DNA of 64,000 nucleotides from a virus: positions 55,557 through 119,556 of the IMG/VR virus record IMGVR_UViG_3300042884_000193, one strand, 5' to 3'. The notes beneath the pieces were generated by a model that saw only the letters and a list, made by a program, of their open reading frames with translations, had not been told where the DNA came from and searched no databases. Positions within the stretch are counted from its first letter, which is position 1, and the number at the start of each line of letters is the position of its first letter. Of the stretch, positions 2,302-39,373 are shown piece after piece. Both the position numbers and the translations under genes were made by a program.

Positions 2302-3204
2302 TTAAACTGCATTATTAATATTATAGTCAATCGGATAAAAATATGACTTGAACATGTCATAGTATTTACCATACATAGCCTTACGATTCATAGCCCAAAC
2401 TTTCTGCATCTCAGAGAAGTTAGGAGTATTAACTACCGATAGTGCATTATTACGCGCAGCTCTAAATTCAGTAGCAATTAGTTGATACTGAACTGTCACA
2501 TTTTCTCCCATAAGAAGTAATGTCTCATAGATTTTCTTTTTAAGGGCATACTCGTAGTACTCATTTAAAAAAGGGTGATCTGGTACCATTAACTCTCCAT
2601 CCTCATTCTCCATATTTCCTTGATAGTTGATATAGATGTTACCCTCTTGGAAGCTTGTCCAAATAAAATTATCTTTTATGTAGGCGTCATCAGAAGAGTA
2701 CATCTGGAGATTAGGGCAATCACAGTCAATAAACTGAGAATTTTTAAACCTAATAGGAAACATAGATTTGTAATGACGTGTAGTTGTATTGACAACTTGA
2801 ATAAGCTGGTAATCATTTCCACATTTTGTTAGGCATACTGGTGTATTTGTAGTGTTTACTTGAGAACACAAGTTACCTTCAACCCAATCTCTATATTCAG
2901 GAACTACTTGTTGAATCTGAGTACCTTGAGGATTTACAATAGTACTCGTATACTCACCACAAATAAGAGCAAAGTTCATTACAAAGAAGTCATCAGGAAG
3001 TCTAACCTTTCCTTTAACAACTTCTAAAACTTTTTCTTTAGTGTGATATATACGTAGACCTAAATCATAGTTAGCTTTAATTGCAATTTTGACAAGCGTA
3101 GCAGGCTCAATTTTGTTCTCCAATGACGCAGTTGGAAGATCCACTCGGACATCTTCCAAAAGTTGCTCAAAAGTCCTATATTTAAGAGTGTAGTTATAGT
3201 TCAT
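2302..3204 (-). CDS. Tail tubular/ring protein
   Basis: 300 aa directly upstream of the muzzle gene; GNIYINYQG..EDGELMVPDHP motif typical of crAss-like tail tubular proteins. Confidence 0.7.
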   Translation of the reverse strand: MNYNYTLKYRTFEQLLEDVRVDLPTASLENKIEPATLVKIAIKANYDLGLRIYHTKEKVLEVVKGKVRLPDDFFVMNFALICGEYTSTIVNPQGTQIQQVVPEYRDWVEGNLCSQVNTTNTPVCLTKCGNDYQLIQVVNTTTRHYKSMFPIRFKNSQFIDCDCPNLQMYSSDDAYIKDNFIWTSFQEGNIYINYQGNMENEDGELMVPDHPFLNEYYEYALKKKIYETLLLMGENVTVQYQLIATEFRAARNNALSVVNTPNFSEMQKVWAMNRKAMYGKYYDMFKSYFYPIDYNINNAV

Positions 3205-36894: not shown

Positions 36895-37413
36895 ATGCTA
36901 AAAGCACAATTTATCGGTGCATCTAAGACTGGGTCTTGGAAGTACCGCGTTATCGGCACGACAGCCGAAGTTACAGCCTTTAAGGTATGGAACACTACAC
37001 AGGTTAACAACAAAACCGGTGAACTGATTAAGCGCACTGCGCAGAATCATGATGTCTTATTTGTATCAATGTACAACAGAGATGAGCAGGGTAATGTAAC
37101 AGGGACTGTTGTTCCTTACCCATCAGGTACTGTTATACATAGACCATTAGTTGCGGGTGACCGTATTGGCGAAATGATCTATGAGTTTGAGCCTGATGCA
37201 AAAACAGCGTCCATTATTAATATGGCACAGGCTGTTGGTACAGAGATTACTACTATGATGCACAACATTGGGGCATTCAATGGAGTAAGCAATACTCAGG
37301 CGACTGTGGTTTCTGCAAATCCTGTGGCTGCAACACCTGCCATTAACTTCAATGCAGTACCATTATTGGAGGCTGAGGCAGATGGAGAAGAAGAAGAGGA
37401 AGATGAAGCATAA
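36895..37413 (+). CDS. Early hypothetical protein with acidic tail
   Basis: 172 aa ending EAEADGEEEEDEA. Confidence 0.75.
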   Translation: MLKAQFIGASKTGSWKYRVIGTTAEVTAFKVWNTTQVNNKTGELIKRTAQNHDVLFVSMYNRDEQGNVTGTVVPYPSGTVIHRPLVAGDRIGEMIYEFEPDAKTASIINMAQAVGTEITTMMHNIGAFNGVSNTQATVVSANPVAATPAINFNAVPLLEAEADGEEEEEDEA

Positions 37414-37437
37414 TCTTGATGTAAATCATTAAGAAAC

Positions 37438-37500
37438 GGTAGTTAAGTGGTTGGGTATCAGCGAGTTACAGTGACTTGTTGACACCCACCACTGACTACC
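37438..37500 (+). other. Long intergenic hairpin
   Basis: ggtagtt-agtgg-tgggt-tcagcgagt...acttgttga-accca-ccact-gactacc. Confidence 0.6.
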
Positions 37501-37560
37501 TATCTTTATGCTAATTGCCTCAAAATCAATAACAATAGCCGTAACATATGGCTAAATGAT

Positions 37561-37728
37561 ATGATTAAGACTTTCAACTTCATTGGTAAGTTATACTCTC
37601 ATATAGTTACTATGTACTATAAGCTTAAAGAGAGATACTCTTATGTTAGATTCATAGTAGTTAGACTCCGTGGTGGAGTTTGCTTTGGTTACTTCTCTGT
37701 TAGTAATGATATAGAGAATGCCTTATGA
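37561..37728 (+). CDS. Hypothetical protein (55 aa)
   Basis: Not in the ORF track. MIKTFNFIGK...; ATGA overlap with 37725. Confidence 0.4.
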   Translation: MIKTFNFIGKLYSHIVTMYYKLKERYSYVRFIVVRLRGGVCFGYFSVSNDIENAL

Positions 37729-37919
37729 ATCACCTATTGCTTTATTTCTATCTTATGACCGGGATGGTTACTAAGAACGAGGACGGATTGTATGATATAC
37801 ATAGTCCCAATGCTGTTGTAATAGAATCGGCCTGTGAAGGTGAGGTTTTATTATGGATAGAGACCGGTGAGTTTGCATATGATGATAATCTATGTAGAGC
37901 CGGTGAGTTAAATGATTAA
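37725..37919 (+). CDS. Hypothetical protein
   Basis: 64-aa ORF. Confidence 0.55.
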   Translation: MNHLLLYFYLMTGMVTKNEDGLYDIHSPNAVVIESACEGEVLLWIETGEFAYDDNLCRAGELND

Positions 37920-38075
37920 ATACTATATGCCATGTTAGATAGATTAATTTACTAAATCGCAGTTTCCGTAGTCACCAATTTCTTTGAATAATGTTTAGGG
38001 TGATAAATACGACAGAGAAAGAACATTACATACAGCTGATGAAGTAGGCTGTTTTATTACTTAATACCTTTAAGC

Positions 38076-38366
38076 ATGACACAGATATTAGTTCCCGATA
38101 ATGTCAACCCATATGATAAGAAAGAACTAATGTCCTTTATAGAGTCATTAGGCTTAAGTCTTATGGAAGACTATGAGGAAGTATTCCAATATCTTGATCC
38201 ATTTACCCAAGGTAGATGGATTGATATGGGAATGAAAGTATTTTTAACTGTGAATACTTATAGACGACATCCAGGTAAAAGATTTGTAGTAGGCTATAAT
38301 GTAGACTATGTAAGATCTGATAAGCCTGTTAAGTCTTATGTAGTTCACGAGTATAAAATGATTTAG
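38076..38366 (+). CDS. Hypothetical protein
   Basis: 96-aa ORF. Confidence 0.6.
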   Translation: MTQILVPDNVNPYDKKELMSFIESLGLSLMEDYEEVFQYLDPFTQGRWIDMGMKVFLTVNTYRRHPGKRFVVGYNVDYVRSDKPVKSYVVHEYKMI

Positions 38367-38367
38367 T

Positions 38368-38608
38368 GAGCCGGTGCAGTATAGGTGAAAGTTGAATAAG
38401 ACCTACTCTGTAAACAAAACCTCAACCCGGGTACACGATGTAAGGGTCAACTATGCAGGTCTGTAAATTCACAGTTCAGACAACCTGCGAGATAACAGAA
38501 ACTGTAACAGATTATGAGAGCCGTGACTACCATATAAAAGTAGTCAGTCCACGATGGCAAGGTATGCAAGGGTTAACACTTACTATGATAGGCTTCATAA
38601 TTCTGATT
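38368..38608 (+). ncRNA. Candidate structured ncRNA upstream of the twister ribozyme
   Basis: No listed ORF; several long stems (gcaggtctg/cagac..acctgc, cagattatga..gcc/ggcttcataattctg, gactac/gtagtc) and a possible pseudoknot. Confidence 0.55.
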
Positions 38609-38761
38609 TGTATTAATGCATCATAACTTACTTCACAAGGGTAAGCAGTTATAGTATATGCCGAGTTAGATAGATTTGATAATCTATACTATACGTAGGG
38701 TCTCTTCAGACTTGGAGTAACGTCCAGCAGGTAATACTATAACTGAATGCAGAGTGGTACA
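38609..38761 (+). ncRNA. Twister ribozyme (type P1) with large P5 insertion
   Basis: P1 tgtat/gtaca; TAA cleavage motif; P2 tgca/tgca; P4 cttac/gtaag with loop TTCACAAGG; GA-GTG 3-prime core; T1 CAC/GTG; P5 cagttatagta/tactataactg. Confidence 0.75.
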
Positions 38762-38813
38762 CACCAAGGTTAAACTTCTACCTTAAAAGAAGTAACATAA
38801 AACAAATAGTAAT

Positions 38814-39125
38814 ATGGCAGACGAGAGCATATTCGCTAAACCATTACCAGTATACTGGACTATGGCAAACAAACAGAGTATTAAGGTAGATGATATGGGC
38901 AATGGCCATGTCAGGAATGCTTTTAAAGTACTCATTGTTCAGCATAACAAGTTAAAGCGTGAGTATAATACGCTTGTTGATATGTACGATGACTTGATGA
39001 AGCAATCAGGAACTGTTGTCAAGTCCTATAAAGAGGTTACTCTTAATGGTGATATGGCACAAGAGTTTAATGATAAGCAAGAAGAACAAGCCAATGACCC
39101 TGAAGGTGATGGCTGTCCATTTTAA
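38814..39125 (+). CDS. Hypothetical protein
   Basis: 103 aa; W...I.VDDM...HVRNA motif common in small phage proteins. Confidence 0.65.
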   Translation: MADESIFAKPLPVYWTMANKQSIKVDDMGNGHVRNAFKVLIVQHNKLKREYNTLVDMYDDLMKQSGTVVKSYKEVTLNGDMAQEFNDKQEEQANDPEGDGCPF

Positions 39126-39180
39126 TGTGTGAAGGATAGACATAAGGTTTTTATAAGTTCCTTATTGTCGCTGTGTGGAA

Positions 39181-39219
39181 AACCTGCGGGTGTTGGGCTA
39201 TGCCCGCAGGTACTTTTTT
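39181..39219 (+). terminator. Rho-independent terminator
   Basis: acctgcgggt...gcccgcaggt followed by tttttt. Confidence 0.8.
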
Positions 39220-39250
39220 GTAAATAAGTTAAATCAATTAATACACGACT

Positions 39251-39373
39251 ATGAAAGCTAGAATTAAAGATGTTATTGTATGGGCTATTGTCATATTAGG
39301 CAATGCTGCGATTTGGTATCTGTGGTATCATTTGGGTTATATGGTAGGAAATTTAAACACGGGGTGTTTATGA
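39251..39373 (+). CDS. Small membrane peptide (40 aa)
   Basis: Not in the ORF track. MKARIKDVIVWAIVILGNAAIWYLWYHLGYMVGNLNTGCL; ATGA overlap with the next gene. Confidence 0.55.
   Translation: MKARIKDVIVWAIVILGNAAIWYLWYHLGYMVGNLNTGCL

What the first reader, a model, noticed from the sequence alone, without database searches (positions are those of the whole stretch)
38368..38614. About 245-nt structured RNA whose 3-prime end would be set by the ribozyme
Seen: no listed ORF here in an otherwise dense region. Domain A is ccgg/ccgg enclosing tgcag..taggt/accta..ctgta, with loop gttga(38391) complementary to tcaac(38422), a possible pseudoknot. Domain B is gcaggtctg/cagac..acctgc. Domain C is cagattatga..gcc(38508)/ggcttcataattctg(38591), enclosing gactac/gtagtc, and it ends just before twister P1. 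Inference: a ribozyme-processed phage ncRNA (decoy, anti-defence or regulatory) of a family I cannot name.
Basis: partly seen in the sequence, partly recalled or inferred. Interest (0 to 1): 0.75.

Follow-up and report, generated by a model that had tools for sequence, protein, structure and literature searches.

The report
Transcribed phage spacer RNA before twister
The gene-free stretch is a real non-coding piece of a lake phage's early message that turns up in environmental RNA libraries and ends at a self-cutting twister RNA, but its proposed fold is unproven and a sister phage keeps it without the ribozyme.

Summary
Partly confirmed. No Rfam family matches, even at E<=10.

Only two relatives could be fetched (L127, L128). 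They show the stretch is non-coding: the 57-aa ORF loses its start and frame in L127 and gains a stop in L128. They give no usable covariation: of 49 reader pairs, 41 are invariant, 1 compensatory, 6 broken. Only the 3' third (38508-38606) changes less than four-fold sites. Domains A and B change at least as fast.

Four of four lake metatranscriptome runs hold contigs only inside 38379-38596 (one also covers the upstream gene's end). None covers the ribozyme or the next gene.

The adjoining twister is real. It belongs to a large phage family that Rfam misses: 41 sequences, 13 of 28 pairs compensatory, 0 of 500 shuffles. It should cut after U38614.

L127 keeps the RNA but carries a different, uncatalogued 77-nt folded RNA in the twister's place.

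The scan noted similar twister-plus-RNA-module layouts in other lake crAss-like phages, but not this sequence.

The parts
38076..38366 (+). Upstream 96-aa gene of unknown function. Its stop codon lies 1 nt before the RNA stretch.
   Evidence: ORF list. No Pfam or PHROG hit. 23 homologues at 70-93% identity.
38368..38430 (+). Domain A: nested helices CCGG/CCGG, TGCAG/CTGTA and TAGGT/ACCTA.
   Evidence: MFE reproduces it (z -1.12). In L127 two inner pairs break and z is +0.61. Divergence from L127 is 9/61, not below the four-fold rate.
38431..38452 (+). Hypervariable linker.
   Evidence: Indels and substitutions cluster here in L127, L128 and RNA contigs X16 and X19. Divergence is 5/22 and 3/19.
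38453..38507 (+).
   Evidence: z -2.02. There is one compensatory change in each model in L127: G38455-C38488 to A-U, and A38473-U38503 to G-C. Two reader pairs are broken in L127. Divergence is 10/55.
38508..38605 (+). Domain C: a 14-bp closing helix with two bulges, around hairpin 38524-46 and a second hairpin at about 38570-87. This is the best-conserved part.
   Evidence: Fold. Divergence is 5/99 from L127 and 2/99 from L128, against four-fold rates of 0.110 and 0.063 (P 0.03-0.08). The hairpin loop position 38533 is T, C or A. A38526G keeps a G-U pair on the + strand only.
38606..38614 (+). Nine-nt tail up to the predicted cut. It includes the 5' strand of twister P1 (38609-13) and U38614.
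   Evidence: Alignment A5 and pair counts. Position of the scissile U-A next to P1 is from PMC5408937 passages. Cleavage itself is inferred.
38609..38761 (+). Variant type-P1 twister with a roughly 100-nt P5 insertion. It is the only copy in the 119.5-kb genome.
   Evidence: Both halves are conserved in IMG/VR loci. Of 28 pairs, 13 are compensatory and 0/500 shuffles reach that. Rfam misses it. Single copy. Absent from L127.
38762..38813 (+). Leader of the downstream gene, invariant in both relatives.
   Evidence: 0/50 differences in L127 and in L128.
38814..39125 (+). Downstream 103-aa gene.
   Evidence: ORF list. Distant homologues lie behind long twister-bearing gaps in L002 and L003.
38453..38626 (+). 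57-aa ORF. Not a gene.
   Evidence: In L127 the ATG is ATA and there is a +1 indel. In L128 there is a premature TAA, leaving 38 aa. No family hit.
38573..38601 (+). Sigma-70-like hexamer pair TTAACA-17-CATAAT inside domain C.
   Evidence: Consensus scan. Kept in L127. The number of such sites is not above shuffles (10 against 12.0).

Best explanation
38368-38614 is a non-coding, transcribed intercistronic segment of the rightward early-type gene block of a lake phage distantly related to crAss-like phages. It is read through from the 96-aa gene.

In this genome and in L128, the variant twister directly behind it is predicted to cut between U38614 and A38615. The upstream RNA would then end nine nucleotides after the long closing helix of domain C, with a 2',3'-cyclic phosphate.

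That 3' domain is the only part that looks constrained. I propose that it acts as a terminal plug against 3' exonucleases. The segment, and to a lesser degree the upstream message, would then outlast the neighbouring coding RNA.

Domains A and B and the linker behave like loosely constrained spacer. The RNA belongs to no catalogued family and is confined to a narrow phage lineage.

Shown: non-coding status, presence in RNA libraries, reality of the twister fold, independence of the two modules.

Inferred: cleavage, the 3' end, the stabilising role, the 5' end.
For: - Non-coding: the ORF is destroyed in 2 of 2 relatives, and indels are not multiples of three.
- RNA libraries: 4 of 4 metatranscriptome runs (four studies) hold contigs at 38444-38594 (plus 22 nt of L128-type linker, depth 21.3), 38384-38552, 38444-38583 and 38379-38545. 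The only other contig on the 1301 nt laid is 38233-38379, at depth 3.9. None touches 38604-39200. Six RNA runs in all hold 0.13-0.17 of the words.
- Twister: 41 sequences, 93.5% of cells paired, 13 of 28 pairs compensatory, 0/500 shuffles. T1 changes from C-G to A-U in 6 of 41, the window among them. TAA next to P1 is invariant.
- No intrinsic terminator lies between the two genes.
- Domain C diverges less than four-fold sites (5/99 against 22/200; 2/99 against 13/205).
- Long ORF-free stretches before the cut are typical of this twister family: median 358 nt in 36 loci, 248 nt here.
- Literature: self-cleaving ribozymes have been suggested to process polycistronic transcripts into pieces of different stability (PMC6765202 passages). 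Two early intergenic RNAs of crAss-like phage phi14:2 exceed most genes in abundance (preprint 10.1101/2020.03.07.982082 passages).
Against: - Folding energy equals shuffles. Among 42 twister loci, the 240 nt before the cut here are among the least structured: z -0.3 against a median of -2.65. Even control places have a median of -1.66.
- There is no significant covariation.
- Domains A and B diverge faster than four-fold sites from L127 (24/138 against 22/200).
- L127 lacks the twister, so the end cannot always be ribozyme-made.
- The RNA runs are Logan contigs. They give no strand and no true ends, DNA carry-over cannot be excluded, and the runs were chosen for holding part of 38300-38830. 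The contigs stop at 38545-38596, not at 38614.
- A hairpin within 6 nt of P1 is only modestly commoner than at control places (33/42 against 38/63).
Confidence: 0.45

Rival explanations
1. A stand-alone, trans-acting early ncRNA (decoy, sponge or regulator). It would have its own 5' end near 38368-38379, and the 3' end would be made by whatever cassette follows.
For: RNA contigs are deeper than, or present without, the upstream gene. The RNA persists when the twister is swapped. The linker is hypervariable between conserved blocks. There is a precedent of abundant early intergenic RNAs of unknown function in phi14:2.
Against: No promoter or 5'-end evidence. No target or partner was identified. 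Domains A and B are unconstrained in L127. No homologue was found outside a very narrow lineage. No similarity to the first 9 kb of phi14:2.
Confidence: 0.2
2. A functionless transcribed spacer or decaying remnant. It appears in RNA libraries only because it lies between processing sites or by sampling, and its helices are chance.
For: z -0.27. Overall identity is no higher than the neighbours: 87.9% and 97.0% against 92.4% and 93.5% for the gene. A and B diverge at or above the neutral proxy. Stem-breaking changes occur in L127. The lineage is restricted.
Against: Domain C is below the four-fold rate in both comparisons. Four of five RNA contigs fall inside it, out of 1301 nt laid. Other gaps of this region are also more conserved than four-fold sites, which suggests the gaps are not junk.
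Confidence: 0.25
3. Domain C is conserved as DNA. It would hold a promoter or operator for the 103-aa gene (TTAACA-17-CATAAT at 38573-38601), with transcripts starting at about 38608, at the head of the twister.
For: The hexamers are kept in L127 and lie at the same distance from the cassette boundary. 38572-38606 is invariant in three sequences. Earlier notes of this scan describe twisters heading phage RNAs (untested here).
Against: Promoter-like sites are not enriched (10 found, 12.0 expected). RNA contigs run through the site up to 38594-96. The host and its promoter type are unknown.
Confidence: 0.07
4. A small protein gene (57 aa, 38453-38626).
For: An ATG ORF with a hydrophobic C-terminus is present in the window.
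Against: In L127 the start is lost and the frame shifts. In L128 there is a stop after 38 aa. No family hit. The ORF runs into the ribozyme core.
Confidence: 0.02

Closest known systems
Abundant early long intergenic RNAs of the crAss-like Cellulophaga phage phi14:2 (g004-g005 and g005-g006 junctions; Drobysheva et al. preprint 10.1101/2020.03.07.982082, passages read)
   Same: Non-coding stretches between small genes, transcribed in the gene direction and reported as more abundant than most protein-coding genes. Function unknown. The phage here has a crAss-type large terminase (about 25% identity).
   Different: No sequence similarity and no twister motif in the first 9 kb of phi14:2. The phi14:2 RNAs are longer. 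The time course and strand are not known here.
Twister self-cleaving ribozyme, type P1 with optional P5 (class described in PMC5408937, passages read). This applies to the flanking element only.
   Same: P1, P2, P4 and pseudoknot T1 are present and covary. U-A follows P1. The conserved loop L4 is present.
   Different: No Rfam twister model scores it, even at E<=10. The core is A/U-rich. Here it has a roughly 100-nt P5 insertion. Cleavage is untested. It is a neighbour of the finding, not the finding.
Ribozyme processing of polycistronic bacterial or phage transcripts into pieces of different stability (hypothesis reviewed in PMC6765202, passages read)
   Same: A self-cleaving ribozyme sits between two cistrons, with no terminator. 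RNA cover is unequal on the two sides.
   Different: This is only a hypothesis in the literature. Here the upstream product carries a 240-nt non-coding tail rather than ending at a gene.
3'-UTR-derived stable RNAs protected by a terminal stem-loop (general bacterial RNA decay knowledge, recalled, not from a call)
   Same: A long helix close to the 3' end. The non-coding tail is more abundant than the coding body.
   Different: The end would be made by a ribozyme, not by a terminator or RNase E. There is no evidence of trans action or chaperone binding.

Membership tests
Any Rfam 15 family (for 38368-38614) | Covariance-model match at the gathering score, or at E<=10 | tested here: not met
   0 matches in the whole window at gathering. 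0 at E<=10 in 37400-39000. 0 at E<=10 in L127:2100-2560.
Conserved structured ncRNA (generic) | Compensatory base changes beyond chance | tested here: inconclusive
Only three sequences. Alternative helix: 1 compensatory, 166/500.
Conserved structured ncRNA (generic) | Folding energy below shuffled controls | tested here: not met
   z -0.27 for the whole stretch. Domains -1.12, -2.02 and -1.55.
Conserved structured ncRNA (generic) | Purifying selection relative to a neutral proxy | tested here: inconclusive
   Domain C: 5/99 and 2/99 against four-fold rates 0.110 and 0.063 (P 0.03-0.08). Domains A, linker and B: 24/138, above the proxy.
Twister ribozyme (flanking element 38609-38761) | Stems P1, P2 and P4 with covariation | tested here: met
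   P2 and P4 are 100% paired, P1 69.8%. 13 of 28 pairs compensatory, 0/500 shuffles.
Twister ribozyme (flanking element 38609-38761) | Pseudoknot T1 between loop L4 and the strand before P1's 3' side | tested here: met
   3 pairs, 100% paired. The middle pair is C-G in 35 and A-U in 6 of 41, the window among the 6.
Twister ribozyme (flanking element 38609-38761) | Scissile U-A next to P1 and conserved L1/L4 nucleotides | tested here: met
   TAATGCA and the loop CAAGG are invariant in 41 of 41. The definition is from PMC5408937 passages.
Twister ribozyme (flanking element 38609-38761) | Match to Rfam twister models | tested here: not met
   No hit for the window, for 8 loci at gathering, or for a compact copy at E<=10.
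Twister ribozyme (flanking element 38609-38761) | Self-cleavage | not testable with these tools
   Needs an in-vitro transcript or end-specific RNA-seq.
phi14:2-type early intergenic RNA | Higher transcript level than neighbouring genes | tested here: inconclusive
   Contig-level data only. Depth 21.3 against 3.9 in one run. Only the RNA stretch is seen in three other runs.
phi14:2-type early intergenic RNA | Sequence or model homology to the phi14:2 regions | tested here: not met
   nhmmer and blastn found nothing significant in NC_021806 1-9000. The domain-C model found nothing there.
Small protein gene | ORF conserved in relatives | tested here: not met
   Start lost and frameshift in L127. 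Premature stop in L128.

The most novel reading that the evidence does not exclude
The 240-nt RNA is a stand-alone early phage ncRNA of a new family, and its 3' end is made by interchangeable RNA cassettes. In this genome the cassette is a twister. In the sister strain L127 it is a 77-nt uncatalogued multi-helix RNA, which would then be a new class of self-cleaving or end-forming RNA occupying the same slot.
Probability: 0.12. Interest if true: 0.8.

Novelty: new member of a known kind. Interest (0 to 1): 0.4.

Why it matters
If the reading holds, it gives phage twisters a concrete job: making the tail of a stable non-coding RNA inside an early operon.

It also offers a natural experiment. Sibling strains in the same lakes carry the same RNA with the twister (window, L128) or without it (L127).

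The practical lesson is a caution. A list of plausible helices in an A/T-rich gap did not beat shuffles, and only the last third shows any sign of constraint.

The more valuable by-product is the 77-nt covarying RNA that replaces the twister in L127. It is a candidate for the same function in a different fold.

Tried and rejected
Homologue searches that found nothing for 38368-38614:
- blastn 'distant' against GenBank phages.
- blastn and nhmmer against 125 fetched loci.
- A covariance model of domain C over 1.19 Mb of loci plus the window. It found only the three input sequences.
- Exact-pattern scans of IMG/VR. One found a single hit, L129, which is a chance match inside a coding region. The other found none.
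- An exact-pattern scan of GTDB genomes, none.
- The window's own genome: self match only.
- The scan's earlier notes, by sequence and by relatives: nothing.

Protein-anchored searches with the 96-aa gene:
- IMG/VR gave none.
- Metagenome contigs gave 2 loci.
- GTDB genomes gave one irrelevant 18-residue match, L131.
This is the main limit of the report.

Other ideas rejected:
- tRNA or tmRNA: none in the window.
- Coding gene: rejected.
- Stop-codon recoding: not needed, because all frames are broken several times.
- Homology to the phi14:2 early RNAs: not found.
- A general rule that the upstream RNA ends in a hairpin just before P1: only 33/42 against 38/63 at control places, so not claimed.
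- The inner hairpin I added to the alternative domain-B model was in the wrong register and is void.

RNA-run parts without cover (twister, downstream gene) are reported as absence of contigs only, not as absence of RNA.

Literature:
- Four searches listed no paper that, by title or abstract, describes ribozymes or their flanking RNAs in crAss-like phages. The term 'crass' also matched unrelated words.
- PMC8375218 held nothing relevant; the only match was in its reference list.
- PMC8782182 was seen as listing and abstract only.
- Supplements were closed. Supplementary Tables 2 and 3 of the phi14:2 preprint may bear on the comparison.

Full report
**Context**

The window is bases 55557-119556 of a 119,556-bp IMG/VR virus record with direct terminal repeats. 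GC content is 36.6%. The left half of the window encodes portal, large terminase and major head proteins on the minus strand. The large terminase finds crAss-like phages of Bacteroides, Flavobacterium and Cellulophaga as its best GenBank matches, at about 25% identity. So 'distantly crAss-like' is fair.

From about 35 kb a block of small genes runs rightward. The finding lies in a 447-nt gap between a 96-aa gene (38076-38366) and a 103-aa gene (38814-39125). Neither gene has a Pfam or PHROG family. DNA runs that hold the stretch are lake or freshwater metagenomes.

**The observation**

The minimum-energy fold reproduces domains A and C and a version of B.

They are not more than chance would give:
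- The 247 nt fold at -55.3 kcal/mol against -54.0 +/- 4.7 for dinucleotide shuffles. That is z -0.27, and 79 of 200 shuffles fold as well.
- Taken alone, the domains give z -1.12, -2.02 and -1.55.
- The minus strand of domain C does better, z -2.87.
- No Rfam family matches the window at gathering score or 37400-39000 at E<=10.
- There is no tRNA or tmRNA.

**Relatives**

GenBank phages, IMG/VR and GTDB genomes hold nothing like the stretch.

The 96-aa gene has 23 homologues at 70-93% identity in the large protein collection. A metagenome scan with their alignment gave two contigs, L127 and L128.

L128 has the same layout as the window. L127 keeps 38368-38606. From 38607 to about 38763 it carries roughly 65 unrelated bases instead of the twister. 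It then resumes with a leader identical to the window's. The break points coincide with the outer ends of twister P1. So the RNA stretch and the ribozyme are separate modules.

**Coding or not**

The only sizeable ORF is 57 aa (38453-38626). In L127 its ATG is ATA and it has a +1 indel. In L128 it has a premature TAA after 38 codons. Indels in the first 120 nt are single bases. The stretch is non-coding.

**Structure in the light of the relatives**

- 41 are invariant.
- 1 is compensatory (G38455-C38488 to A-U).
- 1 is a wobble-compatible change (A38526G, which pairs only on the + strand).
- 6 are broken in at least one sequence.
- 142 of 500 shuffles do as well.

RNAalifold adds a covariation term of only -0.21.

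L127's own best fold of domain B uses another helix, 38471-76 with 38500-05. In the window this helix is ACAGUU/AACUGU. In L127 it shows one compensatory change (A38473-U38503 to G-C) and one wobble change. With one informative sequence this has no statistical weight (166/500).

In L127 domain A loses its inner pairs (z +0.61). Of the proposed loop pseudoknot, four pairs (GUUG/CAAC) persist in all sequences. The fifth is lost in L127, L128 and two RNA contigs.

**Selection**

Four-fold degenerate sites of six flanking genes differ at 22/200 (L127) and 13/205 (L128). Against that proxy:
- Domains A, linker and B differ at 24/138 from L127. That shows no constraint.
- Domain C differs at 5/99 and 2/99. 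One-sided P is 0.03-0.08, and the two comparisons share the window branch.
- The 50-nt leader behind the twister is invariant.
- Two other gaps of the region are also below the proxy.

Variation among four haplotypes (window; L128 with contigs X15, X18 and X19; X16; L127) piles up in the linker 38422-38445 and at loop position 38533, which is T, C or A. So, if anything here is a functional RNA domain, it is 38508-38606.

**Expression**

Fourteen DNA runs hold at least 0.89 of the sampled words, and six metatranscriptome runs hold 0.13-0.17. I laid four RNA runs from four studies on 37900-39200. Their contigs lie at:
- 38444-38594, preceded by 22 loose letters that are the L128-type linker (depth 21.3).
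- 38384-38552 (depth 5).
- 38444-38583 (depth 3.2).
- 38379-38545 (depth 4).
- 38233-38379 in one run (depth 3.9).

Nothing lies on the twister, the leader, the downstream gene, or upstream of 38233.

The runs were chosen for holding part of 38300-38830, so some cover there is by construction. Even so, 150-175-nt pieces falling four times out of five wholly inside the 247-nt stretch is unlikely for uniform cover. My rough estimate is below 1 in 100. This estimate is an inference, not a computed test.

These are contigs. They give no strand and no true ends, and DNA carry-over cannot be excluded. None crosses the predicted cut, but they stop at 38545-38596, not at 38614. I read this as moderate evidence that the stretch is over-represented as RNA.

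**The ribozyme**

Of 127 matches, 65 have the 5' half within 700 nt, and 64 are distinct.

Forty compact copies plus the window align with an invariant core. Of 28 pairs in P1, P2, P4, the base of P5 and pseudoknot T1:
- 13 show compensatory changes.
- 93.5% of cells pair.
- No shuffle of 500 reaches this.

The window carries the rarer A-U form of the middle T1 pair, together with a U-A form of the last P2 pair.

This fits the published definition of the class: essential P1, P2 and P4; optional P3 and P5; two pseudoknots; a scissile U-A next to P1 (passages of PMC5408937). Yet Rfam scores none of them, not even a compact copy at E<=10.

The cut is predicted between U38614 and A38615. The genome has one copy. 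In 36 loci with enough flank, the ORF-free stretch before the cut has a median of 358 nt (248 here). The distance from the ribozyme to the next ATG ORF has a median of 140 nt, with many at 35-45 nt (53 here).

The 240 nt before the cut are often strongly structured in other phages (median z -2.65 in 42 loci). Places 1.5 kb away are also fairly structured (median -1.66). The window's stretch is among the weakest (-0.3).

**How it most likely works**

Transcription reads through from the 96-aa gene. No terminator-like site lies between the genes. The twister folds and cuts. The upstream piece ends nine bases after the 14-bp closing helix of domain C, with a cyclic phosphate. The downstream piece starts with a 5'-hydroxyl, the folded ribozyme and an invariant leader.

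I propose that domain C protects the upstream piece from 3' exonucleases, which would explain its excess in RNA libraries. This matches the published suggestion that such ribozymes split polycistronic RNAs into parts of different stability (passages of PMC6765202). It also resembles the abundant early intergenic RNAs of phi14:2 (passages of the preprint). There is no sequence similarity to those.

Cleavage, the ends and the stabilising role are all inferred. A trans-acting role, a functionless spacer, and a DNA-level promoter inside domain C remain open. The promoter candidate is TTAACA-17-CATAAT at 38573-38601, kept in L127.

**What replaces the twister in L127**

The replacement is not filler. 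The same element occurs at 81.6% identity in L077 and in part in L004. A degenerate motif finds it in eight IMG/VR stretches.

Eight copies align as a closing helix around two variable hairpins and a small third one, joined by near-invariant strands. Of 20 pairs, 11 are compensatory, 96.1% of cells pair, and 0 of 500 shuffles reach this. The closing helix occurs in four different complementary versions.

A model built from the eight copies finds three further copies, in L135 and L137, and none in the window. Rfam has no match at E<=10. In most loci the element ends 18-53 nt before a start codon. That is the same slot as the twister.

Whether it cuts itself is unknown. It is the most interesting loose end of this locus.

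**Verdict**

- Real: a lineage-restricted, non-coding, apparently transcribed segment; a genuine twister neighbour; a natural with/without-ribozyme pair of strains.
- Not shown: a defined fold, a discrete transcript with mapped ends, any function.

I class it as a new member of a known kind: non-coding RNA modules beside self-cleaving ribozymes in early regions of crAss-like phages. Earlier notes of this scan describe the same kind on other genomes, though not this sequence. Interest is moderate.

Noticed in passing
L127:2379-2458 (takes the place of window 38607-38763); also L077:1674-1753(-), L004:2381-2453, L134:602-673(-), L135:3230-3312(-) and 2808-2894(-), L136:7930-8006, L137:1806-1926 and 1129-1260, L138:7889-7961, L139:1745-1820(-): An uncatalogued folded RNA of about 77 nt sits in the twister's slot in the sister contig. 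It has a covarying closing helix, two variable hairpins, a small third hairpin and near-invariant joining strands. Of 20 pairs, 11 are compensatory and 0/500 shuffles reach this. There is no Rfam hit at E<=10. It usually ends 18-53 nt before a start codon. It is a candidate functional equivalent of the ribozyme.
   Followed up: partly
window 37920-37945 and 38651-38676: A 26-nt direct repeat (88% identical), with one copy just after the stop of ORF 37725-37919 and the other inside the twister's P5 insertion. The copies end 131 and 138 nt before the next start codon. The first copy is kept in L127 and L128. Meaning unknown.
   Followed up: partly
IMG/VR loci L002-L126 (64 distinct copies): A large, A/U-rich twister family in phage contigs gets no hit from any Rfam twister model. 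Some copies have the 5' core placed after the 3' half or carry large insertions, which suggests permuted or P3-bearing forms.
   Followed up: partly
L002:983-1134 and L002:2100-2540: A Hatchet ribozyme (81.7 bits) lies about 1 kb upstream of two tandem twister-like units. A tRNA-like T-arm sequence lies between the core strands of the second unit. All of this is in one 776-nt gene-free stretch before a homologue of the 103-aa gene.
   Followed up: no
window 37920-38075, 39126-39279 and 38764-38813: Other gene-free gaps of this early block differ less between strains than four-fold degenerate sites: 5/155 and 7/147 against 22/200 for L127, and 0/50 for the leader. The gaps as a class seem constrained. 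In L128 the first gap is partly replaced (68% identity, 34 gapped positions).
   Followed up: partly
L123 and L098, about 150 nt before their twisters: The two loci with the most similar twister (92-98% over the core halves) have no homologue of the 245-nt stretch. Instead there is a terminator-like hairpin after the upstream ORF, and a short hairpin abutting P1.
   Followed up: no
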